Below, piece by piece: positions 1-8,977 of a stretch of DNA of 8,977 nt. Position 1 is the first letter of the stretch; each line of letters starts with the position of its first letter. The notes under the pieces are model-generated. The model did no database searches. It saw nothing but the letters and a program-made list of their open reading frames with translations, and was not told where the DNA came from. Source of the DNA: a virus (taxonomy: Duplodnaviria; Heunggongvirae; Uroviricota; Caudoviricetes). Both the position numbers and the translations under genes were made by a program. The stretch lies in IMG/VR virus record IMGVR_UViG_2547132488_000020; one strand, 5' to 3'.

Positions 1-16
1 AAGATGTGTAAATATT

Positions 17-62
17 GATTACGCCGGATTATGCCGGGTTATTTGCAAGTATTCAGGGTTAT
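17..62 (+). promoter_or_regulatory. Phased 10-bp direct-repeat element, copy A, upstream of the structural operon
   Basis: Hexamers GATTAC (17-22), GATTAT (27-32), GGTTAT (37-42), weaker AAGTAT (47-52) and GGTTAT (57-62) recur at exactly 10-bp spacing. Positions 17-42 match 4897-4922 at 23 of 26 bases. Role as a protein-binding site is inferred. Confidence 0.4.
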
Positions 63-177
63 AAGTTACTGATTTTACATTAAAAAGCTCACATTGTGGC
101 TATTGTGTTCGGCCTGGTTACTGTATATCTTTAAGTCATTCCAGACGATTTATTGCACAACAACCGGAGCATTTTTA

Positions 178-1062
178 ATGAACGTTTTATCTCAACTTAT
201 CAACGACGCGTTGAACCACCAGGGCGGCCATGTTCGCACTGATGGCAACGGTGATATTACTCAATTTATCCCTATGGAACCGGCAGCAGTTCGCTACCTG
301 TCCATGAATGACGTGCTGACCCCGAAAGGCGGCAAGCAGACTACCTTCAACGCTGTTCTGGCTGAACGTTCGCTGGTGGCACAGGCAGGCGCTGAAATCA
401 TCCGCATTCCTGGCCCGATGACCACGCAACCGACCGGCCAGACTGGTGCAACGACTGGCCGCGAAGTGGCTGACCGCTTCGTTGTCATCCGCCCTGGTGC
501 GTTCGCCAAAGTGGCTGACGGCGAAGAAATCAGCATGAGCGGCAAGCCGTACATGGTTGCAGCATTCGACCACAACACCGCACCGGCTTACGGCGTTGGC
601 TACACCCTGACCCGCCAGCAACTGAAACACGAATTCGCTGACGATACAGTGCTGGAAGCGGTCAACACCGCCATTGAACGCGGCATTGCCGATCTGGCTG
701 ACTTCGTGCTGCTGAACCACCTGGAAACCGCAGCGGAAACGCTGGCCAGCCCGTCATTCACCGCAGTGGCGCAGAAGATTGCAGCCAAAAACCTGCGCTT
801 TGATGAAGTTAAAGCCATTGTTGGCGGTGATTGCACCGGCCTGGAACTGCAAGACGGCGTTCTGCGCGCCTACGGTGTACGCGCTGAAATCAGCGGCCAG
901 ACTTCCAGCACAATCATTGGCGCTTTCGGCAATGCAGCCGTTGCCCTGGATGATGAAATTCGCGTCACCGCCAGACGCGTGCTGAATGGTGCGGTTGAAG
1001 TGGTGGTTTGGGTGAACGCATCCGCACTGGTGCCTGACTCAACTATGTTCTGGAAGGCTTGA
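178..1062 (+). CDS. Putative virion structural protein, possibly HK97-fold major capsid-like (294 aa); function unverified
   Basis: Long ORF with ATG at 178 preceded by GGAG (166-169) at 8-nt spacing. The 94-177 extension in the ORF track starts at TTG and reads as hydrophobic noise. Gly/Ala/Thr/Val-rich, acidic composition with a C-terminal segment IIGAFGNAAVALDDEIRV that resembles the conserved C-terminal strand of HK97-family capsid proteins (recalled from memory, not searched). First gene of an operon ending in a tape-measure gene. Confidence 0.6.
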   Translation: MNVLSQLINDALNHQGGHVRTDGNGDITQFIPMEPAAVRYLSMNDVLTPKGGKQTTFNAVLAERSLVAQAGAEIIRIPGPMTTQPTGQTGATTGREVADRFVVIRPGAFAKVADGEEISMSGKPYMVAAFDHNTAPAYGVGYTLTRQQLKHEFADDTVLEAVNTAIERGIADLADFVLLNHLETAAETLASPSFTAVAQKIAAKNLRFDEVKAIVGGDCTGLELQDGVLRAYGVRAEISGQTSSTIIGAFGNAAVALDDEIRVTARRVLNGAVEVVVWVNASALVPDSTMFWKA

Positions 1063-1064
1063 TC

Positions 1065-1379
1065 ATGTGGTGGGGCAGCAAAAAAGCGGCAGCGGAGCGC
1101 GCTGCCCTGCCGGGTGAAATCCTGGCAGCTATCGAAGGTGTGGCCATGTATGTGCGCCACGGTGATGAAAACACACCGCGCATCGTAGTGCAGCCGGTTG
1201 GCTGGTCAGGATTCATCTACAGCGATGACGCTGCTGAAAAATGGATTCGCAAGGCTTACCCGGAGATTAAGCAGTACCAGATTGAACGCGCCGTGAATTA
1301 CCTCGCTTCCCTGGTGCGCAGTCACTACCGCGAGCAGCGCCCGAAACAGAAGCGCGAAAGCTGGATGAACAGGTACTAA
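1065..1379 (+). CDS. Hypothetical protein (104 aa)
   Basis: ATG at 1065 with GGAAGG (1053-1058) SD at 6-nt spacing, 2 nt after the upstream stop; stop TAA 1377-1379 lies 3 nt before the next start. No motif recognised. Confidence 0.55.
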   Translation: MWWGSKKAAAERAALPGEILAAIEGVAMYVRHGDENTPRIVVQPVGWSGFIYSDDAAEKWIRKAYPEIKQYQIERAVNYLASLVRSHYREQRPKQKRESWMNRY

Positions 1380-1382
1380 GCC

Positions 1383-1547
1383 ATGAAACGACAAGAAACA
1401 CGCCAGCACGTAACGGTACGCCTCGCCCCTGACCTGGTGCGCCAGGTCGAAAGAGAGCAAGCCAAACTGGAACGCAGAACAGGCATCCGCCCTTCACGCA
1501 GCCAGGTGATTGAAAAGTTTCTGAGTAGCGGGCTGAACGGCAAATAA
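1383..1547 (+). CDS. Ribbon-helix-helix (CopG/Arc/MetJ-like) DNA-binding protein (54 aa)
   Basis: Hand translation gives MKRQETRQHVTVRLAPDLVRQVEREQAKLERRTGIRPSRSQVIEKFLSSGLNGK. The pattern beta-strand VTVRL, helix PDLVRQVEREQAK, Gly turn, helix RSQVIEKFL is the classic RHH layout. AGGT SD 8 nt upstream. Below the ORF-track size cutoff. Confidence 0.6.
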   Translation: MKRQETRQHVTVRLAPDLVRQVEREQAKLERRTGIRPSRSQVIEKFLSSGLNGK

Positions 1548-1761
1548 TGGCCAAGAATACAGGTTTCACCGGTTCCCTGTGCCCAAAATAACCGGCCAAA
1601 TTTAACCTTCATCGTTCCTCAGACGATGGATGCTGGAACCAGGTTGGTGGTCATCCTGGACGGTCAAAACCACCACTAATTCCACACCGGTTGCGCCGCA
1701 CCGGTCACCTAAAAGCGCGCACTCACTTAATCATCAACAACTATTGTTAGCGGCCAATACT

Positions 1762-2079
1762 ATGAAAAACCATGACCTGTACGAATCAATGAAAGAAGAA
1801 GCGCGTTTGATCCTTAGCGAAACAAAGCGTTTCCAAACCATTTCAGAGAAAAACCCAATCAGCTACGAAGCAGCCGACCTGCTGGCCAGCCTTCGCAACC
1901 GTTTAAACGCATTCGAACACATGACCGATGAAGCCGGTCGCGCCATGCGCAACGAAGCGGAAAGCCACGCATCGACCCTGGAACGCAAGAAGTGGCAACC
2001 ATCCAGCCGCATCAGTTCCGGTGAACGGGCCAAGCGCCAGGCAGTGAAGCGCGGCGCTATCCTGGTGCGGAGCGCATAA
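1762..2079 (+). CDS. Hypothetical helical, charged protein (105 aa; alternative start 1630 gives 149 aa)
   Basis: ORF in frame with 1630..2079. The N-terminal extension from 1630 is low-complexity and overlaps the CACCGGT motifs, so 1762 is preferred, but neither start has a good SD. Stop TAA 2077-2079 is 2 nt before the next ATG. Confidence 0.5.
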   Translation: MKNHDLYESMKEEARLILSETKRFQTISEKNPISYEAADLLASLRNRLNAFEHMTDEAGRAMRNEAESHASTLERKKWQPSSRISSGERAKRQAVKRGAILVRSA

Positions 2080-2081
2080 GA

Positions 2082-2291
2082 ATGGCAACCAACAACAACA
2101 TTTATGAAGCCGTTCTGAACGTCATCGGCGTAGCCGACAAGATGACGAAGAACAACGCAAGCCAACTGACCGACGCACAAAAGTTGGCGATCAAGAACCT
2201 TAGCGGCGCGATGAAGTCCTGGAAAGGTATCACGTTTGGGATGCGCGACATCACCGCCAACGACAAACCAACAGAAAGCAAAACCGCATAA
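2082..2291 (+). CDS. Hypothetical small protein (69 aa)
   Basis: ATG 2082 tightly following the upstream stop, with GGAG 2066-2069 upstream. Position just before the tape-measure gene is where tail assembly chaperones usually sit, but no sequence evidence supports that role. Confidence 0.5.
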   Translation: MATNNNIYEAVLNVIGVADKMTKNNASQLTDAQKLAIKNLSGAMKSWKGITFGMRDITANDKPTESKTA

Positions 2292-2300
2292 GGGGGCACC

Positions 2301-2507
2301 ATGCTGGACCGTATTCACACAAAACCGGAAGGAACAAACCCCTGGCCTGAACTGGTGGATATGGTCCTGCCCAAAGTTATGGTTTGCGAAACAGCGGAGG
2401 GAATGCAGGCACAGCGTAAACATCGCACCGAATGCGCCCTGCAACTGGCTGCTGCCGCCCTGCGGGCTGCTGGTGAACACACCCTGGCAGAAAATCTACT
2501 TAATTAA
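2301..2507 (+). CDS. Hypothetical small protein (68 aa)
   Basis: ATG 2301 preceded by a strong AGGGGG SD (2291-2296). Same reading frame as 2082..2291, separated only by TAA plus 9 nt. Confidence 0.5.
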   Translation: MLDRIHTKPEGTNPWPELVDMVLPKVMVCETAEGMQAQRKHRTECALQLAAAALRAAGEHTLAENLLN

Positions 2508-2528
2508 TTCTTTCAGAGACAAATTATT

Positions 2529-4820
2529 ATGGCCAATAAGAAGTTGAACGCCACAATCACCATCGGGGGTGCCGTTTCCGGCAGCCTCCGCGGTGCTTTT
2601 GGTACGGTGGAGAAATCCACCATCAAGATTGGCGCAGCGATTAAGCACATGTCGCGCGAACAGCGCCAGCTTAACGACGCTATGAAGCGTTATGGGCAAA
2701 ACTCCACGATGGTTGACCGCCTGCGCGGTCGTTACGAAAACATCGTAGGCCAGGTGGAACGCCTGCGGGCTGCGCAAGAGCGTTTAAACAGAGTGCAACG
2801 CGCCAGCACGGAAAACCTGGCCAAGCAGGCACAGCTACGCGGGCAGATTATCGATACCGTTATGGCTGGTGCTGCCGTTGCCGCACCTATCAAGATTGCC
2901 GCAGATCGTGAACAGCACGCCATTGGCATTGCCAAACAACTGGACGGCGCACGCGATGCAGCGGGCAACCTGACGGCGAAGTTTTGGGAAATGCGCAAGG
3001 CCGTTGCTGACCTTGGGCACGAAATTCCACTGGCCACAAACGACCTGTTTGACATGGCCACAGCAGGGCTGCGCATGGGCGTAGCTGGCGACCAAATCCT
3101 GGGGTTCACCCGGAACGTGGCCAAACTGGCCAGCGCCTTGGAACTGAACCCGGAAGAAGTCGCAGACAATATGGGCAAAATCCAGAATGTTTATCGACTT
3201 ACTCAAGCTGAGCTTGTGCGCCTTGGTGATGCTATTAATTACCTGGACGACCAAAACACCGTTAAAGGCGGTGAGCTTATCGACTTCCTACAGCGTGTTG
3301 GTGGTTCCGCCTCCCTCGCCAAACTCACTGCCAACGATATGGCAGCAATCGGCACCACGCTGATTTCTATGGGTGAAAGCGCAGACACTGCCGCAACGTC
3401 AGTGAAGGCGCTTGTTTCCAAGATGACGCTGGGCAGCAAATCCACGAAATCTGCGCGCGAAGCGTTCAAGGAATTGGGTTATTCCGCGCAGGAAGTGGCG
3501 AAATCCATGCAACTGGATAGCGTCAAGACCATCGAAAACTTTATGAAGACGGTCAACAAGCTGCCAGATTACAAGAAATCCGGCATCCTGGTGTCCATCT
3601 TCGGGCAGGAACACGTTGGTTCTATCTCCAAACTGGCAGCCAACATGGACAAGTTTGGCGAGGCGTTGCACCAGGCTAATGGCGAAATGTCCAAAGGCAG
3701 TGTGCAGAAGGAATTCCAGAACACCGTCAACACCACCAACGCGCAGATGGTTATCCTGCGTAACCGCACCGCTGACGTGGCTGACAATATCGGCACCGTC
3801 CTGCTGCCGACCGTCAACGACGCAGCCAAAGGCATTGGCCGCATCACAACTGTTGTGGCGAACTTCGCGGCGGAACACCCCGGCCTGACCAAAGCCGTGG
3901 TGGGCACAGCGATGGCGCTCACGTCCCTGCGTGTGGCCACCCTGGCGGCGCAGTTCGGCTTCACGTTCCTGAAAGGTGGCGTGTTGCAGATGTCCAGCCT
4001 GTTTGCCCGCATGAACGCATCTGCCGTTCTGGCCAGCACCCGTGGCCTGCCTGCGGTGGCTACCGGCATTCGTGCCGTTGGTGCGGCGTTCATATCCACT
4101 GGCGTGGGTGCTGCCGTAGCTGGCCTGGCGCTGGCAGGTTATCAGATTTACCGCCATTGGGCCGGTGTGAAGGCTTTTTTTGGTGGCGTTGGTGAAGGCA
4201 TCAAATCCGGGTTGGAACCGCTTAGCGATGCCCTGCATCGCCTGTATGAGCGCATGGGGCCATTGAAGCCCGTCATTGATGGCGTGGGCGCTGCGGTTAA
4301 GACGGTTTTCAACTGGTTCACGTCACTGACCGAACCGGTCAAATACAGCGGCGAGGAACTGGATAAGGCCGGTAAAATGGGGATGACGTTCGGTAAGACC
4401 CTGGCGGCTGGCATCGAGCTTGTGACCGCACCGATCACGTTCCTGATTGATAAGATTCTGTGGGTGTCTGACAACATCGGCAACCTGACCAACAAGGCAC
4501 TGGAGTTTAAAAACGCCGTGTCTGATGTTGCTGGTGGTGCGTGGCAGAAAACCAAAGATTTCTTTAGCAATCCGTTCGGTGAAGACGAAAGCAGCCAGCC
4601 AGCAGCGACCGCCGCCCCTGGTGCGTCCTTGCCTTCACCGGCACTGGCTAACCGCACCGGCAACACAACGGTGAACACGAACGACCAGTACACCATCAAC
4701 GTGAAGGCCGAGCCTGGCATGAATGAAGATGCGCTGGCAAATAAGGTGGCGCAGAAGCTGAAACAGCAGCAAGGAATCCGAAATCGTAGCATGATGAATG
4801 ACGGATTAGCAGCACCGTAA
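2529..4820 (+). CDS. Phage tail tape-measure protein-like (763 aa)
   Basis: Uninterrupted 2292-nt ORF. N-terminal Arg/Gln/Glu/Ala-rich helical region; a core (approx. aa 150-330) reading ATNDLFDMATAGLRMGVAGDQILGFTRNVAKLASALELNPEEVADNMGKI ... IGTTLISMGESADTAATSVKALVSKMTLGS that matches my memory of the TP901-family tape-measure core; a long Gly/Ala-rich hydrophobic segment (approx. aa 450-560). Size and layout are typical of TMPs. Not verified by search. Confidence 0.75.
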   Translation: MANKKLNATITIGGAVSGSLRGAFGTVEKSTIKIGAAIKHMSREQRQLNDAMKRYGQNSTMVDRLRGRYENIVGQVERLRAAQERLNRVQRASTENLAKQAQLRGQIIDTVMAGAAVAAPIKIAADREQHAIGIAKQLDGARDAAGNLTAKFWEMRKAVADLGHEIPLATNDLFDMATAGLRMGVAGDQILGFTRNVAKLASALELNPEEVADNMGKIQNVYRLTQAELVRLGDAINYLDDQNTVKGGELIDFLQRVGGSASLAKLTANDMAAIGTTLISMGESADTAATSVKALVSKMTLGSKSTKSAREAFKELGYSAQEVAKSMQLDSVKTIENFMKTVNKLPDYKKSGILVSIFGQEHVGSISKLAANMDKFGEALHQANGEMSKGSVQKEFQNTVNTTNAQMVILRNRTADVADNIGTVLLPTVNDAAKGIGRITTVVANFAAEHPGLTKAVVGTAMALTSLRVATLAAQFGFTFLKGGVLQMSSLFARMNASAVLASTRGLPAVATGIRAVGAAFISTGVGAAVAGLALAGYQIYRHWAGVKAFFGGVGEGIKSGLEPLSDALHRLYERMGPLKPVIDGVGAAVKTVFNWFTSLTEPVKYSGEELDKAGKMGMTFGKTLAAGIELVTAPITFLIDKILWVSDNIGNLTNKALEFKNAVSDVAGGAWQKTKDFFSNPFGEDESSQPAATAAPGASLPSPALANRTGNTTVNTNDQYTINVKAEPGMNEDALANKVAQKLKQQQGIRNRSMMNDGLAAP

Positions 4821-4845
4821 TGAAATGAAATTGATGACTGCAACC

Positions 4846-4877
4846 AAAGCCTGGGTGAAAACTCTGGCTTTTTTTTA
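4846..4877 (+). terminator. Intrinsic terminator after the tape-measure gene
   Basis: Hairpin 4846-4856 pairing with 4861-4871 (about 11 bp, one mismatch, one GU) around a GAAA tetraloop, followed by T8 (4869-4876). Confidence 0.6.
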
Positions 4878-4896
4878 TGGTTAGCATTTATTAACC

Positions 4897-4922
4897 GATT
4901 ATGCCGGATTATGTGGGGTTAT
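4897..4922 (+). promoter_or_regulatory. Phased 10-bp direct-repeat element, copy B, upstream of the replication operon
   Basis: GATTATGCCGGATTATGTGGGGTTAT; 23 of 26 bases identical to 17-42, with GATTAT, GATTAT, GGTTAT at 10-bp phasing. Confidence 0.4.
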
Positions 4923-4992
4923 GAGTGACATTTACCTTTTTAAATGCCTGAAATTATTTATGAATTTTCGGCCTATATTTTGGCAAAATAGC

Positions 4993-5020
4993 TTGCAGAA
5001 ACCGGATTGCAGGGTATCAT
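4993..5020 (+). promoter_or_regulatory. Candidate sigma70-type promoter for the replication operon
   Basis: TTGCAG (4993-4998), 16-bp spacer, TATCAT (5015-5020); predicted start near 5027. Sequence match only. Confidence 0.35.
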
Positions 5021-5025
5021 TTGAA

Positions 5026-5050
5026 TTGTGGCGCTTGCACACCGCCACAA
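5026..5050. promoter_or_regulatory. Perfect inverted repeat TTGTGGCG-N9-CGCCACAA (operator-like or RNA hairpin)
   Basis: 8-bp perfect arms 5026-5033 and 5043-5050 with a 9-bp spacer, sitting at the predicted start site of the 4993-5020 promoter. Confidence 0.35.
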
Positions 5051-5051
5051 A

Positions 5052-5120
5052 AAGGAAAACCCCCGGACTGCGCGAACAATCCAGGGGGCTTAATGAAAGT
5101 CTAGGTTAGCGGCCTGACTA
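5052..5120 (-). ncRNA. Candidate small antisense RNA (about 65 nt) with its own promoter and intrinsic terminator
   Basis: On the minus strand: TTGCTA (plus 5150-5155), 17-bp spacer, TAGTAT (plus 5127-5132); no ATG in the transcribed stretch; GC-rich hairpin (plus 5060-5066 pairing with 5081-5088, one bulge) followed on the minus strand by UUUUCCUUUUU (plus 5049-5059). Ends are approximate. Confidence 0.3.
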
Positions 5121-5221
5121 GGAAAAATACTAGCAAAGACCTTTACCTTTAGCAAGTTAAACCCCCCTTCATTGAGCCACCGATTTTAGCGCAGCCTCAA
5201 CGAAATATTGAGGAATGCGAA

Positions 5222-5497
5222 ATGAAATTGCACGACCTGGCTGACGCCATCCTGAAAACCAGAACCGTTGAAACTCGCTGTGATGCTGCGTTCAAATTCG
5301 CTGACGCTATGCTGCGCAACGGTTCAAGCATCACCGACACAGCGGAAGCAACCTACCGCATTGTAATGCGCGGGAACAAAGCCTACCGCCTGAACAAAGA
5401 TGACGCCTGGCGCATCACTGCGCACGCCTACGCTGAACAACTGGCGGAACGCGAAGTGGCCACCGTCCTGGCGCAGATTGCCGGGGGTGCGAAATGA
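5222..5497 (+). CDS. Small hypothetical protein, first gene of the replication operon (91 aa)
   Basis: ATG 5222 with GAGGA SD (5210-5214) at 7-nt spacing; stop overlaps the next start as ATGA. Shares the motif [YF]x[LF]N[KR]xDAW and an AGGA[KA] C-terminus with the next ORF. Confidence 0.6.
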   Translation: MKLHDLADAILKTRTVETRCDAAFKFADAMLRNGSSITDTAEATYRIVMRGNKAYRLNKDDAWRITAHAYAEQLAEREVATVLAQIAGGAK

Positions 5498-5727
5498 GCA
5501 TCATCACCCTGCATCGCCTTATGCGCGAACCTGCTACCAGCCAGACGCACGCACAGTGCGTGGCCATCATGCAGGAACTGATTAAGCAGGCCATCCAGTC
5601 TGGCCGCCCGCTGCAATATTCCATCTACCTGGGGCACCTGGCAGAGCACACCCGCTTCCCGTTCAACCGCGTGGACGCCTGGCAAATGGCGCTGGATATG
5701 CAGCGCAAGGCAGGGGGTGCGGCATGA
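5494..5727 (+). CDS. Small hypothetical protein resembling the preceding ORF (77 aa)
   Basis: Start overlaps the upstream stop (ATGA at 5494-5497) and its stop overlaps the primase start (ATGA at 5724-5727). GGGGGTG SD-like sequence sits inside the upstream C-terminus. Confidence 0.6.
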   Translation: MSIITLHRLMREPATSQTHAQCVAIMQELIKQAIQSGRPLQYSIYLGHLAEHTRFPFNRVDAWQMALDMQRKAGGAA

Positions 5728-8012
5728 GTCTGGCACACGAAAAGTACGCCTGGACTGAACAGGACGCAGCCGAGGCGTTGACATTTATTGACCCTGATTG
5801 CGACCACGAAACCTGGACCCGCCTGGCGTTTGCGGTGAAGGCTGAATTTGGTGACGCTGGATTTGATGTCTGGAACGATTGGAGCAAACAGGGCCAGAAG
5901 TACGACAGCAAAGAAGCACGCCAGAAGTGGAAAAGCGCCAAGCGGCACGGCGGAGTAACCATCGGCACGCTGATTGACCTTTCCATGCAGAACGGCTGGA
6001 AGCCGGGCACCAGGAAAGAGCTTTCAATAGACGAGATTCAGGCTCGCGCCGCGAAGCGTGAGGCCGAAGCTAAAGCCGAGGCAGAGCGCAAGCGCCACGA
6101 CCAGGCAGCAGCGGCAGCCCGCGCCCTGGAAATATGGGAAGCATCGGAACCGCTGGAAGGTAACGAACACCCGTATTTGCAGCGCAAAGGTGTGCTGTCT
6201 TTCGGCCTGAACGTTGGCCGCTGGAAGGGATACGAAAATGCACTGCTGGTGCCAATCCGCAACGCTGATGGTTCCCTAACCAGCTTGCAGGCAATCTTCC
6301 CGAACACCAACACTGACCTGGGCCGTGACCGTGACTACCTGAAAGACGGCCAGAAGCACGGTTGTTTCCACCTGATTGGCGGTAAGCCTGTTGGCGAAAA
6401 GCCGGTGATTGTGGTTTGCGAGGGTTACGCCACTGGTGCCAGCATCCACCAGGCAACAGGCCATTACGTGGCCGTGGCTTTCGACAGGAGCAACCTTAAA
6501 GCTGTGGCGCAGGCCATGCGCAAGATGGTTGGCCGCGCCACAATAATTGTGGCCGCTGATAACGACCAGTGGGAGAAGGGCAACCCCGGAAAAACCGATG
6601 CAGGTAAGGCAGCGCAGGCGGTTGGCGGCCTGGTGGCTGTGCCTGAATTCGATGACCTGACCACGAAGCCGACCGACTTCAACGACCTGCATAAATTGCA
6701 GGGAATTGATGCCGTGCGCAGCCAGGTGCAGGCTGTTATTCCAGCACCGGAGGAAAAGCGGTTCCTGCCACTGGATTCTAATGTGGTGCCGTTTGACTTC
6801 CCCTACACGTCAGACAGGATGCAGCCGCTTAACAACTGGGAAAACCTTGATTGGCTGTTAAGTCAGTACGGCATTACCGCTCGTTACAACGAGATCAGCA
6901 AGGAAGTTGAAATCAACGTGCCTGGTAAAAGCTATGGCGGTGACGGTGATGACGATAGCGCGCTGATTGAAGTGACCAGCCTGTGCGCCCGTAACCGGAT
7001 GCCAAAAGCTGACGTGGCTGACTACATCAAACTGATTGGCAAAGAGAACCGTTACAACCCGGTCAAAGACTTCATTCTGTCCAGGCCGTGGGATGGTTGC
7101 AGCCGGTTTGCTGACCTGTTAGCCACCATTGAAACGCCAGCAGATTACAGCCGTGACCTGATGGCGCTACTGATGAAACGCTGGCTGGTGTCGGCAGTGG
7201 CGGCGACATTTGAGGAACGCGGGTTCTGGTCCAAAGGCATCCTGGTGTTCCAGGGGGAGCAATCCCTTGGGAAAACGTCATGGATTAAGGCGCTGCTGCC
7301 GGAGGAAGAACAGGAAAAGCTATTGCTGGTTGGTGCTGCGATGGACCCTAGCAACAAAGACAGCGTATCGCAGGCAATTGGCCGCTGGATTGTGGAGCTT
7401 GGCGAACTGGACACCACATTCCGCAAGTCTGACATATCGGACCTGAAAAACTTCATCAGCCGCCCACATGACGTGCTGCGCAAGCCGTATGATCGCCGTG
7501 AATCGAAGTATAAGCGCAGGACTGTGTTCTTCGCATCAGTGAACCCGAAACACTTCCTGCATGACGAAACCGGCAACGTGCGTTTCTGGACCATTCCGGT
7601 GACCGGGCTGAACTATAATCACGGCATCGACGTGCAGCAGTTATGGGCCGAAGTGCATCACTGGTACACGAAAGGCGAACGCTGGTGGCTGGAACGCGAG
7701 GAAGAACAGCGCCTGGAAGCGGTGAACGCTGACCACGCGCAGGTTGACCCGCTCGAGGAAATGATTTTAGCCCGCTTCCGCTGGGATGAAACCCGCATGG
7801 AGGTTTACACCGAAATGTCAGCCGCAGAAGTGCTGATAGCGATTGGCTACGACAAGCCAACCAAATCGCAGGCCACATCATGCGGCAACATCCTGCGCAA
7901 GCTGACTGGCAAGGAGCCGCGCAGAACAGCCAAAGGGCGGTTCTACCCGATACCGCCAAAAGAATTACCAAAGCCACAAAGCTATTACGACGAAACCCAA
8001 GGCCCATTTTGA
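5724..8012 (+). CDS. Replicative primase-helicase, P4 alpha-type (Toprim primase plus P-loop NTPase; 762 aa)
   Basis: Toprim motifs VVCEGYATG (Glu233, nt 6417-6425) and AADNDQW (Asp279/Asp281, nt 6558-6566); Walker A GEQSLGKTS (aa 511-519, nt 7254-7280); Walker B-like IVELGELD; Trp-rich N-terminal domain ending GVTIGTLIDL. Architecture matches the phage/plasmid primase P4 family from memory. Confidence 0.9.
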   Translation: MSLAHEKYAWTEQDAAEALTFIDPDCDHETWTRLAFAVKAEFGDAGFDVWNDWSKQGQKYDSKEARQKWKSAKRHGGVTIGTLIDLSMQNGWKPGTRKELSIDEIQARAAKREAEAKAEAERKRHDQAAAAARALEIWEASEPLEGNEHPYLQRKGVLSFGLNVGRWKGYENALLVPIRNADGSLTSLQAIFPNTNTDLGRDRDYLKDGQKHGCFHLIGGKPVGEKPVIVVCEGYATGASIHQATGHYVAVAFDRSNLKAVAQAMRKMVGRATIIVAADNDQWEKGNPGKTDAGKAAQAVGGLVAVPEFDDLTTKPTDFNDLHKLQGIDAVRSQVQAVIPAPEEKRFLPLDSNVVPFDFPYTSDRMQPLNNWENLDWLLSQYGITARYNEISKEVEINVPGKSYGGDGDDDSALIEVTSLCARNRMPKADVADYIKLIGKENRYNPVKDFILSRPWDGCSRFADLLATIETPADYSRDLMALLMKRWLVSAVAATFEERGFWSKGILVFQGEQSLGKTSWIKALLPEEEQEKLLLVGAAMDPSNKDSVSQAIGRWIVELGELDTTFRKSDISDLKNFISRPHDVLRKPYDRRESKYKRRTVFFASVNPKHFLHDETGNVRFWTIPVTGLNYNHGIDVQQLWAEVHHWYTKGERWWLEREEEQRLEAVNADHAQVDPLEEMILARFRWDETRMEVYTEMSAAEVLIAIGYDKPTKSQATSCGNILRKLTGKEPRRTAKGRFYPIPPKELPKPQSYYDETQGPF

Positions 8013-8022
8013 GGAATAAATC

Positions 8023-8250
8023 ATGAGTTATCGCGCGATCATCAGTACATTTGACCCTGAAAACGCATCAACTGTTAACACTGAATTATTCCAGACCTTC
8101 GCAACCGCACCAGAAGCGGAAGCACATGGACGGAAATCACTTGCAGAGATTCAGCAGGAATTCTTCCAGATGGGTTATGCGTTCATCGTCAGCTACTTCA
8201 TCGTTGAAGTACCAGCGGCGGAAATCATCCAGTTTATTGCCCGCACGTAA
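8023..8250 (+). CDS. Hypothetical small protein (75 aa) at the end of the replication operon
   Basis: ATG 8023 with GAGGA SD 7 nt upstream, 10 nt after the primase stop; followed by a terminator. No motif recognised. Confidence 0.55.
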   Translation: MSYRAIISTFDPENASTVNTELFQTFATAPEAEAHGRKSLAEIQQEFFQMGYAFIVSYFIVEVPAAEIIQFIART

Positions 8251-8273
8251 CATCACAACAATTGTTGTTCACC

Positions 8274-8300
8274 GCCCTGGCACCTGCCGGGGCTTTTTTA
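8274..8300 (+). terminator. Intrinsic terminator closing the replication operon
   Basis: Stem 8274-8281 pairing with 8286-8293 (8 bp including one GU), 4-nt loop, then T6 (8294-8299). Confidence 0.6.
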
Positions 8301-8311
8301 TTGTCTGGCTG

Positions 8312-8572
8312 TGACACCTAGGTGTCATCCTGTCTTAAGGTGTCACAGTCGTAAGTGTCTGTTTTTGCTTATTAATGACACCTATGACACCTATGACACC
8401 TATTTTGAAAGATTTATTAGACCGTAAAAAACCGCCGCGAAATAACGGTTACCCTTTTTTTGAAAACAGGTGTCAAGGTGTCACTACCAACCCATGCAAT
8501 CAGCATAAATCGCATATGAATCATGCACTTATGTGTGTGACACCTATGGTGACACCTCAACCCAAGGTGTCA
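8312..8572. repeat. Iteron array: 11 copies of heptamer TGACACC/GGTGTCA flanking an AT-rich stretch; putative replication origin
   Basis: Forward copies at 8312, 8376, 8385, 8394, 8538, 8550; reverse copies at 8321, 8339, 8469, 8477, 8566. Includes a perfect 16-bp palindrome (8312-8327) and three tandem TGACACCTA 9-mers (8376-8402). AT-rich segment 8401-8466 with A6 and T7 runs. Confidence 0.7.
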
Positions 8573-8977
8573 TTCTTTCAGGGCATAGCTGCGCACCGTT
8601 ATGGCGTTATGAATCCACTCATTTGTAACAACGCTTTTTCACATCTAACCAAAGCGGCAGCCGGAATAGGTACAACATACAGAAGTATGATGTAACTACA
8701 GGAAACGAGCCTTTCAGCCTTGTTTTGCGTTCAAACAGTAGCTGCTCAGTAAACAGCCAGAACGTTGCACATATCGCAACAATAAGCCTGTGTGAATACG
8801 GGCTGAAAGCGCGCGGAATATGTCAGATTATGCGCCGTTCGCCTGCCAGCACCTTCCTGGTGCTTCTTTCTGCCTGCAAACCCACCATATTTAACATAAT
8901 GGACCTTGCGCGCACCGACTGGACGCCTGCCTGCCTCAAAAATCGAAGGTACTTCCGAGGGGGCACAGCCTGCGGGG

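What the first reader, a model, noticed from the sequence alone, without database searches (positions are those of the whole stretch)
5049..5155. Candidate ~65-nt antisense RNA against the replication-operon leader
A minus-strand promoter-like sequence (TTGCTA-17-TAGTAT) is followed ~65 nt later by a GC hairpin and U-tract, with no ORF between them. The transcript would be fully complementary to the leader of a rightward transcript from the 4993-5020 promoter. Antisense control of replication genes is established in plasmids, and P4 immunity uses a ~69-nt CI RNA, though that one is sense-oriented, so this would be a distinct arrangement.
Basis: partly seen in the sequence, partly recalled or inferred. 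Interest (0 to 1): 0.6.

Follow-up and report, generated by a model that had tools for sequence, protein, structure and literature searches.

The report
Antisense RNA controlling a mini-replicon's replication genes
A roughly 70-base RNA is very probably made from the opposite strand of the leader of a small plasmid's replication genes and most likely throttles their translation, which is a new example of a textbook way of controlling plasmid copy number.

Summary
On the minus strand, TTGCTA (5155-5150), a 17-nt spacer and TAGTAT (5132-5127, preceded by TGn) lie upstream of a 12-15 bp GC hairpin (5087-5060) and a U-tract (5059-5049). No plausible ORF lies between them.

The hairpin is far beyond chance: about 0.01 are expected per shuffled window. 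The promoter alone is not.

The window is almost a whole ~9 kb circular plasmid-like element of Enterobacterales. Its tape-measure and primase genes resemble those of Jilinvirus-type phages. I found eight diverged lineages of its control region. All keep:
- two face-to-face promoters;
- a 72-78 nt two-hairpin minus-strand RNA;
- a terminator helix with six compensatory pairs, whose G·U pairs exist only on the minus strand.

The plus-strand leader is also structured and shows covariation. It hides the ribosome site and start codon of the first replication-operon gene. In folding calculations, blocking the antisense target makes that site harder to open in every lineage, but only weakly in this window.

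The best reading is a countertranscript that represses translation of the orf91-orf77-primase operon. It matches no Rfam family and I found no published description. It is a new member of a known kind. No transcript data exist.

The parts
4993..5020 (+). P_right, the promoter of the replication operon: -35 TTGCAG (4993-4998), 16-nt spacer, -10 TATCAT (5015-5020). The predicted start is near 5027.
   Evidence: Sequence. TTGnnn, 16-17 nt and TAnnnT sit at the same position in 9 sequences of 8 lineages, 6-7 nt upstream of the conserved GTGGC.
5027..5221 (+). A ~195-nt structured 5' leader of the orf91-orf77-primase mRNA.
   Evidence: Fold z = -3.95. RNAalifold on three lineage-A sequences gives 3 compensatory pairs. 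Positions 5010-5161 differ at only 4 and 11 of 152 sites in relatives whose orf91 has pS 0.36-0.49.
5028..5049 (+). SL-A, a hairpin at the 5' end of the leader.
   Evidence: The helix is kept through changes on both sides in lineages B-G (cols 8/19 and 10/17).
5049..5120 (-). The predicted antisense RNA (about 68-72 nt). It starts at about 5120/5119 and ends in the U-tract.
   Evidence: Two-hairpin fold at -28.1 kcal/mol. Conservation begins at the predicted +1 ((A/G)GUCAGG), while the 6-7 nt after the -10 vary. No Rfam family matches.
5098..5119 (-). The 5' hairpin of the antisense RNA: 7 bp with the 7-nt loop CCGCUAA (5112-5106).
   Evidence: An equivalent hairpin forms in all lineages, and B-G carry an insertion that lengthens it. 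The loop begins with CCGC in lineages A-D, G and H, but not in E/F.
5060..5087 (-). The terminator hairpin of the antisense RNA.
   Evidence: It is -22.2 kcal/mol on the minus strand and -14.5 on the plus strand. Of 14 pairs, 99.2% of cells are paired and 6 pairs show compensatory change. The covariation score is 0.524 against 0.254 in shuffles, 0 of 500 as high. The plus-strand version loses pairs to C·A.
5049..5059 (-). The U-tract UUUUCCUUUUU after the terminator stem.
   Evidence: A U-rich tail is present in all lineages, but in B-D, G and H it is interrupted (UUUCGCGUUUCU and similar).
5127..5155 (-). P_left, the promoter of the antisense RNA: -35 TTGCTA (5155-5150), 17-nt spacer ending TGC (extended -10), -10 TAGTAT (5132-5127).
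   Evidence: Other lineages have TTGC(T/G)(A/C), 17 nt (18 in E) and TA(G/T/A)T(A/C)T. The TTG and TA..T positions never vary while the spacer sequence does.
5087..5097 (+). The 5' strand of a long-range leader helix. It lies inside the antisense target.
   Evidence: It pairs with 5168-5178. Compensatory changes are 5092 A>G with 5173 U>C (L007, L008) and 5096 A>G with 5169 U>C (L008). U5091·G5174 is a pair only on the plus strand.
5168..5178 (+). The 3' strand of the long-range helix. It would be released when the antisense RNA binds.
5181..5230 (+). The hairpin that encloses the ribosome site of orf91: SD GAGG at 5210-5213 and AUG at 5222-5224.
   Evidence: with a compensatory pair 5183/5228 in L007. 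An equivalent SD- and start-sequestering hairpin is the RNAalifold consensus in lineages B-G.
5222..5497 (+). orf91, the first gene of the replication operon. Its function is unknown.
   Evidence: dN/dS 0.28-0.52. Distant homologues (28-33% identity, motif YRLxKDDAW) occupy the same position in sister elements.
5494..5727 (+). orf77. It overlaps orf91 by 4 nt (ATGA), so translational coupling is likely.
   Evidence: ORF coordinates.
5724..8012 (+). The primase-helicase (PriCT_2, Toprim, VapE-like). It overlaps orf77 by 4 nt.
   Evidence: Pfam, PHROGs, and 57-62% identity to primases of Jilinvirus-type phages.

Best explanation
The interval encodes a cis-antisense countertranscript of about 70 nt. 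It is transcribed leftward from its own sigma-70 promoter (5155-5127) and ends at an intrinsic terminator (5087-5049). It is fully complementary to nucleotides ~+25 to ~+95 of the ~195-nt leader of the orf91-orf77-primase operon, which is transcribed rightward from the facing promoter at 4993-5020.

The leader folds so that part of the antisense target pairs with a downstream segment (5087-5097 with 5168-5178 here; a longer helix in sister lineages). That downstream segment would otherwise help close a hairpin over the Shine-Dalgarno sequence and start codon of orf91. When the antisense RNA binds, it removes this partner. The ribosome site then becomes harder to open, and orf91 translation falls. 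Translation of orf77 and the primase-helicase would fall with it, through the two 4-nt ATGA overlaps.

Because antisense RNA dosage rises with the number of element copies, this would act as a negative feedback on replication, that is, copy-number control.

Shown here:
- the sequence features;
- their conservation and covariation;
- the strand specificity of the terminator hairpin;
- the thermodynamic direction of the switch.

Inferred:
- that the RNA is transcribed;
- that it represses;
- that translation is coupled;
- that the outcome is copy-number control.
For: (1) The terminator hairpin is unique in the window, with 0.01 expected per shuffle.

(2) Eight lineages of the control region were recovered through distant orf91 homologues. 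All fold into a 5' hairpin plus a terminator hairpin on the minus strand. The minus strand is 6-16 kcal/mol more stable than its plus-strand complement.

(3) The terminator helix has 14 pairs, 99.2% of cells paired and 6 compensatory pairs. The covariation score is 0.524 against 0.254 in shuffles (0 of 500), and slid controls collapse. On the plus strand several of these pairs become C·A. Energies are -22.2 (minus) against -14.5 (plus).

(4) The P_left hexamers keep TTG and TA..T with 17-nt spacing, while the spacer and discriminator vary. The conserved RNA body starts at the predicted +1.

(5) All genes of the element are on the plus strand. A minus-strand terminator therefore has nothing else to terminate.

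(6) Leader structure is supported by 3 compensatory pairs in lineage A and by a consensus SD/start hairpin in B-G.

(7) Blocking the target raises the cost of opening the ribosome site in all 9 sequences tested: 9.0 to 10.2, 6.8 to 13.6, 3.6 to 8.8, 6.3 to 15.5, 6.6 to 14.7, 4.6 to 14.6, 7.1 to 15.5, 9.9 to 22.4 and 8.0 to 12.8 kcal/mol. When the target is dinucleotide-shuffled, the ribosome site is as easy to open as with the real target in only 0-2 of 60 shuffles, in 7 of the 8 sequences tested; the window is the exception.

(8) The iteron-type origin lies elsewhere, at 8300-8580.

(9) The related phages, which are not maintained as plasmids, lack this intergenic module upstream of their primase.
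Against: - There is no transcript evidence of any kind.
- P_left is weak by consensus: 8 of 12 here and 7 of 12 in most sister lineages. Sites of this quality are common by chance.
- Its conserved bases also lie in a plus-strand leader hairpin (5129-5157), which could explain part of their conservation.
- In lineages B-D, G and H the U-tract is interrupted after three U, so termination could be inefficient.
- In this window the predicted switch is small: +1.2 kcal/mol, with 8 of 60 shuffles as low. Here the ribosome-site hairpin forms with or without the antisense RNA.
- The lineages are related, so the covariation counts are not independent events.
- Equilibrium folding ignores co-transcriptional kinetics, RNases and Hfq.
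Confidence: 0.6

Rival explanations
1. The antisense RNA exists, but it acts mainly by another route than the translational switch. One option is RNase III cleavage of the long duplex followed by mRNA decay. The other is transcriptional interference between the two face-to-face promoters, whose start sites are about 93 bp apart.
For: The duplex would be about 70 bp of perfect pairing. The promoters face each other at close range. In this window the predicted structural effect on the ribosome site is small.
Against: In seven of the eight lineages the target region is specifically complementary to the segment that closes the ribosome site, well beyond shuffled controls. That is hard to explain if structure plays no part. 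The terminator stops the antisense RNA before it reaches P_right, which limits collision-type interference.
Confidence: 0.17
2. No antisense RNA is made. The interval is purely a structured plus-strand leader (a cis-regulatory 5' UTR) and the minus-strand signals are by-products of its hairpins.
For: Plus-strand covariation is real. The P_left hexamers overlap a plus-strand hairpin. The promoter match is modest.
Against: The 5060-5087 helix keeps 3-4 G·U pairs per lineage on the minus strand, and these are C·A mismatches on the plus strand. It is 99% paired on the minus strand but broken on the plus strand. A U-rich tail follows it on the minus strand in every lineage. The invariant -10 and -35 positions (T1, A2, T6; TT of TTG) are mostly unpaired in the plus-strand consensus, yet they never vary.
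Confidence: 0.13
3. The conserved block is a DNA-level element: an origin, a partition site or an operator array bound by element or helper proteins.
For: The block is very highly conserved. A repeated motif, GATTATGCCGGATTATG, lies just upstream at 4897-4922 and recurs at 17-44 and 8816-8833.
Against: The substitutions are compensatory within helices, which indicates selection on RNA. The iteron cluster typical of an origin is at 8300-8580. The repeated motif lies outside the antisense interval.
Confidence: 0.06
4. The plus-strand ORF 4921-5109 (62 codons) is a real gene and explains the conservation.
For: The ORF stays open in L007 and L008, and a gene caller annotated it there.
Against: dN/dS is 1.2-1.3 with pS of only 0.11, against dN/dS 0.28-0.52 and pS 0.36-0.49 for orf91. 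It starts upstream of P_right, its GGGG is only 2 nt from the AUG, and no gene is called there in lineages B-D.
Confidence: 0.02

Closest known systems
IncFII (R1) CopA/CopT countertranscript control of repA (from established knowledge of the family)
   Same: A small untranslated RNA with two stem-loops and its own promoter, transcribed against the leader well upstream of the replication gene. It acts through translation of an upstream reading frame to which the replication gene is coupled. Its dosage is proportional to copy number.
   Different: There is no sequence or Rfam relationship. Here the initiator is a phage-type primase-helicase reached through two coupled small ORFs. The proposed action is release of a segment that closes the ribosome site, not direct occlusion of a leader-peptide site.
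ColE2/ColE3 RNA I and IncB/IncI-alpha RNAI (Inc RNA), antisense RNAs that act at a distance on leader structure (from established knowledge)
   Same: The antisense RNA binds the 5' untranslated leader upstream of the ribosome site. It changes which long-range leader interaction forms, and so blocks initiator translation.
   Different: In IncB/IncI-alpha the antisense RNA blocks an activating pseudoknot. Here it is predicted to remove an anti-sequestering helix. The replicon type is unrelated and there is no homology.
pSYSA asRNA1 / ssr7036 / CyRepA1 of Synechocystis (PMC9978351)
   Same: An abundant cis-antisense RNA overlaps the transcript of a small ORF placed just upstream of an essential primase-helicase replication protein.
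   Different: In pSYSA the sense RNA is proposed to prime replication in a ColE1-like way, with RNase E processing. Here an iteron origin lies elsewhere and the predicted effect is on translation. The two are not homologous.
Satellite phage P4 CI RNA immunity (from established knowledge)
   Same: A small RNA of about 70 nt controls the operon that carries a primase-helicase in a satellite that can live as a plasmid.
   Different: CI is sense-oriented. It is processed out of the leader transcript and causes premature termination by pairing with seqA and seqC. Here the RNA has its own promoter on the opposite strand. The control region has no sequence similarity to any phage record.
pT181 / pIP501 countertranscripts (transcription attenuation; from established knowledge)
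   Same: The logic has three parts: antisense binding removes a pre-emptor so that an inhibitory hairpin forms.
   Different: In those plasmids the inhibitory hairpin is an intrinsic terminator. Here no plus-strand terminator follows the target, and the hairpin covers the SD and start codon instead.

Membership tests
Plasmid countertranscript (ctRNA) replication-control RNAs, as a functional class | A small non-coding RNA with its own promoter and terminator, on the strand opposite the leader of the replication gene. | tested here: met
   The promoter and terminator are present and conserved in 8 lineages, and there is no ORF. This was tested in silico only.
Plasmid countertranscript (ctRNA) replication-control RNAs, as a functional class | One or more stem-loops that present a recognition loop complementary to a target stem-loop. 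| tested here: met
   The 5' hairpin has a 5-7 nt loop in all lineages. The complementary plus-strand hairpin is also predicted.
Plasmid countertranscript (ctRNA) replication-control RNAs, as a functional class | The RNA is actually transcribed, is unstable and is present in excess. | not testable with these tools
   No expression data are available.
Plasmid countertranscript (ctRNA) replication-control RNAs, as a functional class | It negatively regulates initiator synthesis and sets copy number and incompatibility. | tested here: inconclusive
   Folding calculations give the expected direction in all 9 sequences, but the effect is weak in this window. There is no genetic test.
Curated Rfam antisense families (CopA, RNAI, ctRNA_pND324, ctRNA_pT181, ctRNA_pGA1, C4, and others) | A match to the family covariance model at or near its gathering score. 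| tested here: not met
   Nothing scored at E<=1 in the interval in the window or in six sister loci. The only hit is NsiR1 at E=3.3, 19.7 bits against 39, which matches the terminator only.
P4-type CI RNA immunity | The RNA is sense-oriented and processed from the leader transcript, with no promoter of its own. | tested here: not met
   The candidate is on the opposite strand and has its own conserved promoter.
P4-type CI RNA immunity | Sequence relationship to the immunity region of P4 and related satellites. | tested here: not met
   The 401-nt intergenic region has no blastn match in 50,697 phage records at word size 11.
Intrinsic (Rho-independent) terminator | A GC-rich stem followed at once by a U-tract on the transcribed strand. 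| tested here: met
   The stem has 12 pairs (7 G-C) and is followed by UUUUCCUUUU. The U-tract is weaker in lineages B-D, G and H.

The most novel reading that the evidence does not exclude
The RNA is a dual-purpose regulator of a plasmid-form phage satellite. In cis it sets the level of replication. In addition, its invariant hairpin loop (CCGCUAA) pairs in trans with the ribosome site of orf105 (GUUAGCGGCC, 1746-1755), the first gene of the cluster that ends in the tape-measure gene. This would tie satellite copy number to expression of its tail-related genes. Activation of P_right by a helper phage, through the shared upstream GATTATGCCGG repeats, would override it. The complementarity is 10 nt and lies at -16 to -7 of the start codon. 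It scores z = -2.9 here and -2.6 in L008, but it is not significant in lineages B-D and H.
Probability: 0.1. Interest if true: 0.7.

Novelty: new member of a known kind. Interest (0 to 1): 0.45.

Why it matters
Antisense control of replication is textbook. This would be an uncatalogued RNA family that sits in front of a phage-type primase-helicase, in a ~9 kb element that carries a tape-measure gene and has not been described. The element is widespread in E. coli, Salmonella and Proteus assemblies, and orf91 is indexed in 365 blocks of the assembly collection.

The RNA gives a concrete handle on how such satellite-like mini-replicons keep a stable plasmid state. The eight naturally diverged sense/antisense/leader sets also offer a ready test bed for how a target, a sequestering segment and a ribosome site co-evolve. 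The control cassette and the primase are exchanged as modules between otherwise similar elements, which bears on incompatibility and plasmid typing.

Tried and rejected
- **Rfam.** Permissive scans of the window and of six sister loci found no family.
- **Similar DNA.** A blastn search with the 401-nt intergenic region found only the five near-identical plasmids. It found nothing in phages or on E. coli chromosomes.
- **orf91 homologues.** tblastn of orf91 against plasmids and phages gave nothing new.
- **Wider collections.** The orf91 pattern scan of species-representative genomes found nothing. The same scan of the metagenome collection returned only one 100%-identical copy (L020). A gapped DNA pattern for the RNA gave 14 hits in unrelated phyla, about the chance expectation, and these were discarded. 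Viral contigs gave only one 9.45 kb copy and no relatives of the distant homologues.
- **ORF 4921-5109 as a gene.** Rejected on dN/dS.
- **The interval as the origin.** Rejected, because the iterons are at 8300-8580.
- **Direct pairing of the RNA with the orf91 ribosome site.** Significant only in lineage H, so it is not general.
- **A conserved YUNR loop motif.** It fits lineages A, B and D but not E/F or G (reading the loop sequences), so I make no claim.
- **A repeated UUAGCG hexamer at 5186.** It is expected by chance.
- **A column-wise covariation test of the long-range 'open' helix in B-G.** Lineage-specific indels shift the register and defeated the test. I relied on per-lineage folding and shuffles instead.
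- **Related phages.** In ep3 and Bas97 the primase sits in a packed operon without this module.
- **Literature.** Searches found no description of the plasmid family or the RNA. The hits on 'pECQ4552' concern an unrelated lambda-derived contig, IHU08.

Full report
**1. The observation**

The minus strand reads TTGCTA (5155-5150), a 17-nt spacer ending in TGC, then TAGTAT (5132-5127). Downstream, the terminator scan finds a minus-strand stem at 5087..5060 with 12 pairs (7 G-C) and a 4-nt loop, followed by TTTTCCTTTT.

The promoter matches 8 of 12 consensus positions, so the promoter scan did not report it. In my own scan about 21 sites of that quality are expected per shuffled window, so the promoter alone is not evidence. 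The hairpin plus T-tract is the only such site on either strand, against 0.01 expected per shuffle.

The 72-nt RNA (5120 to 5049) folds into a 5' hairpin and a terminator hairpin at -28.1 kcal/mol, z = -3.84. It has no AUG, and no minus-strand ORF of 40 aa or more overlaps it.

**2. What the window is**

The window is nearly a complete ~9 kb circular 'non-mobilizable' plasmid. Close relatives are:
- pSCU-121-2 (98.7% identity over 100% of the window);
- pM121-3;
- Salmonella pR17.0904_9.3k;
- Proteus pW47-1;
- a 17.4 kb dimer.

All genes are on the plus strand. A cluster ending in a 763-aa tape-measure-like protein (2529-4820) is followed by a 401-nt intergenic region. Then come orf91 (5222-5497), orf77 (5494-5727), a PriCT_2/Toprim/VapE primase-helicase (5724-8012) and orf75. 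The three replication-side ORFs overlap by 4 nt each.

About a dozen GGTGTCAC/TGACACCT iterons at 8300-8580 look like the origin. The finding therefore lies in a control region, not in the origin.

The tape-measure protein (43-47% identity) and the primase (57-62%) both have their best phage matches in the same ~41-42 kb myophages: vB_EcoM-ep3 (Jilinvirus), ECOO78, HeidiAbel_Bas97 and Salmonella PT1. In those phages the primase sits in a packed operon without a comparable upstream region.

One 58-kb metagenomic contig joins the same structural module to an integrase-AlpA-primase module. The element therefore looks like a plasmid-form phage satellite. That is an inference.

**3. Finding diverged relatives**

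The intergenic region is 99% identical in the five plasmids, so they cannot show covariation.
- orf91 has two closer homologues, at 75% and 70% identity (loci L007 and L008).
- A profile search found distant homologues at 28-33% identity with the motif YRLxKDDAW.
- These sit in exactly the same position (tape measure, ~355-nt intergenic region, orfX, orf101/106, primase) in sister ~9 kb elements.

Together they give eight lineages (A-H) of a homologous but diverged control region.

**4. Evidence for a minus-strand RNA**

(a) In lineage A, positions 5010-5161 differ at only 4 (L007) and 11 (L008) of 152 sites. The flanks vary more, and orf91 has pS of 0.36-0.49. All changes inside the predicted RNA fall in its loop, bulge or linker.

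(b) Every lineage folds into the same two-hairpin RNA of 72-78 nt on the minus strand. It is 6-16 kcal/mol more stable than its plus-strand complement.

(c) The terminator helix has 14 pairs, 99.2% of cells paired and 6 pairs with changes on both sides.
- The covariation score is 0.524 against 0.254 in shuffles (0 of 500), and it collapses when partners are slid.
- Each lineage keeps several G·U pairs on the minus strand. These become C·A on the plus strand, where the helix loses pairs and the whole-alignment consensus fold is -13.2 against -25.1 kcal/mol.
- For the hairpin alone the energies are -22.2 (minus) against -14.5 (plus).

(d) P_left is TTGC(T/G)(A/C), 17 nt (18 in one lineage), then TA(G/T/A)T(A/C)T in all lineages. 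TTG and T1/A2/T6 never vary, while the spacer sequence and the 6-7 nt after the -10 do. The conserved RNA body, (A/G)GUCAGG, begins at the predicted +1.

(e) P_right shows the same pattern at a fixed position.

(f) With no minus-strand genes in the element, the terminator has no other transcript to end.

**5. The overlapping ORF**

ORF 4921-5109 stays open in L007 and L008. However, its dN/dS is 1.2-1.3 and its pS is 0.11. It starts upstream of P_right and is not called in other lineages. I reject it as a gene.

**6. The leader and a mechanism**

The plus-strand leader is itself structured (z = -3.95). In lineage A three pairs show compensatory change:
- 5092/5173 and 5096/5169, in a long-range helix 5087-5097 with 5168-5178;
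- 5183/5228, in a hairpin (5181-5230) that encloses the SD (5210-5213) and the AUG.

In lineages B-G the RNAalifold consensus again pairs UCACGG with the CCGUGA of the GUG start, and pairs the SD with an upstream arm. In the single-sequence minimum-energy folds of B, C, D and F, the antisense target instead pairs with that upstream arm over about 20 bp. This leaves the ribosome site open.

I computed the ensemble cost of opening the ribosome site (14 nt upstream of the start codon through its sixth nucleotide, 20 nt in all), first with the leader free and then with the antisense target held unpaired:

| Sequence | Free (kcal/mol) | Target blocked (kcal/mol) |
|---|---|---|
| A, window | 9.0 | 10.2 |
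| A, L007 | 6.8 | 13.6 |
| A, L008 | 3.6 | 8.8 |
| B | 6.3 | 15.5 |
| C | 6.6 | 14.7 |
| D | 4.6 | 14.6 |
| F | 7.1 | 15.5 |
| G | 9.9 | 22.4 |
| H | 8.0 | 12.8 |

I then replaced the target with dinucleotide shuffles. The site was as open as with the real target in 0-2 of 60 shuffles in seven of the eight sequences tested, but in 8 of 60 for the window.

The target therefore behaves as an anti-sequestering element. Antisense binding is predicted to close the ribosome site. The direction is consistent across lineages, but the size of the effect in this window is small.

Coupling through the two ATGA overlaps would pass the effect on to the primase-helicase. That step is an inference.

**7. Alternatives**

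- Duplex cleavage or promoter interference could add to, or replace, the structural switch.
- A leader-only reading does not explain the strand-specific helix, the U-rich tail, or the invariant but unpaired promoter positions.
- A DNA-level role is at odds with compensatory substitutions.
- Direct pairing of the RNA with the orf91 ribosome site is significant only in lineage H.

**8. Comparison with known systems**

No Rfam family matches. No phage sequence resembles the region, which rules out a relationship to P4 CI. The orientation and the RNA's own promoter also differ from CI.

In function it most resembles the countertranscripts of IncFII, ColE2 and IncB/I-alpha plasmids. In gene arrangement it resembles pSYSA asRNA1, which lies upstream of a primase-helicase replication protein (PMC9978351). 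I found no paper describing this plasmid family or the RNA.

**9. Verdict**

The finding is real as a sequence feature. It is well supported by comparative evidence as a cis-antisense RNA gene, and it most plausibly acts as a negative regulator of replication-operon translation. It is a new member of a known kind. Its interest is moderate. The host element is arguably the more unusual object. Transcription and function remain untested.

Noticed in passing
window 1-8977 (tape measure 2529-4820; primase 5724-8012); loci L051-L053: The whole ~9 kb plasmid carries a tape-measure-like gene and a primase-helicase. Both have their closest phage homologues in the same Jilinvirus-type myophages (43-47% and 57-62% identity). 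A 58-kb metagenomic contig links the same structural module to an integrase-AlpA-primase module. The element looks like an undescribed plasmid-form phage satellite.
   Followed up: partly
window 8300-8580: About a dozen copies of GGTGTCAC/TGACACCT lie in both orientations just downstream of the primase and orf75. This looks like an iteron-type origin.
   Followed up: no
window 17-44, 4897-4922, 8816-8833: The motif GATTA(C/T)GCCGGATTATG recurs upstream of both operons (families D2 and D18). Sister lineages carry a different repeat (ATTATCTGTGATTATCTG) at the same place. It may be an operator or activator site. The weak CRISPR-DR11 hit at 13-49 (E=0.58) is this motif, not a CRISPR repeat.
   Followed up: no
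window 1746-1755 (+): GUUAGCGGCC lies at -16 to -7 of the annotated orf105 start (1762). It is perfectly complementary to the loop and flanks of the antisense RNA's 5' hairpin. The match scores z = -2.9 here and -2.6 in L008, but it is not significant in lineages B-D and H. It may be a second, trans target, or it may be chance.
   Followed up: partly
window 8246-8299 (+): Directly after the orf75 stop codon there is a CACAACA-containing stretch and then a strong terminator. It gives a weak match to the anti-GcvB sRNA AgvB (23.5 bits against a gathering score of 56, E=0.59). It could be a 3'-UTR-derived RNA or simply the operon terminator.
   Followed up: no
loci L009-L018, L021-L031, L055: Modules are exchanged between otherwise near-identical elements. 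At least four primase-helicase types occur (762 aa VapE; 771 and 730 aa DUF5906; 739 aa VapE), together with eight types of control region plus first ORF. One 12-kb contig carries two different control modules.
   Followed up: partly
L005 (CP077066.1), positions equivalent to window 5060 and 5084: The 17.4 kb record is a head-to-tail dimer. Its two copies differ by single-base deletions in the C-run and G-run of the terminator stem. These are probably homopolymer sequencing errors, not biology.
   Followed up: no
window 4849-4878 (+): A hairpin followed by T8 after the tape-measure gene is the likely terminator of the upstream operon. Its stem differs in L007 and L008, and I judged by eye that pairing is kept; I did not fold or count it. 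It fell below the criteria of both terminator scans because the stem is imperfect.
   Followed up: no
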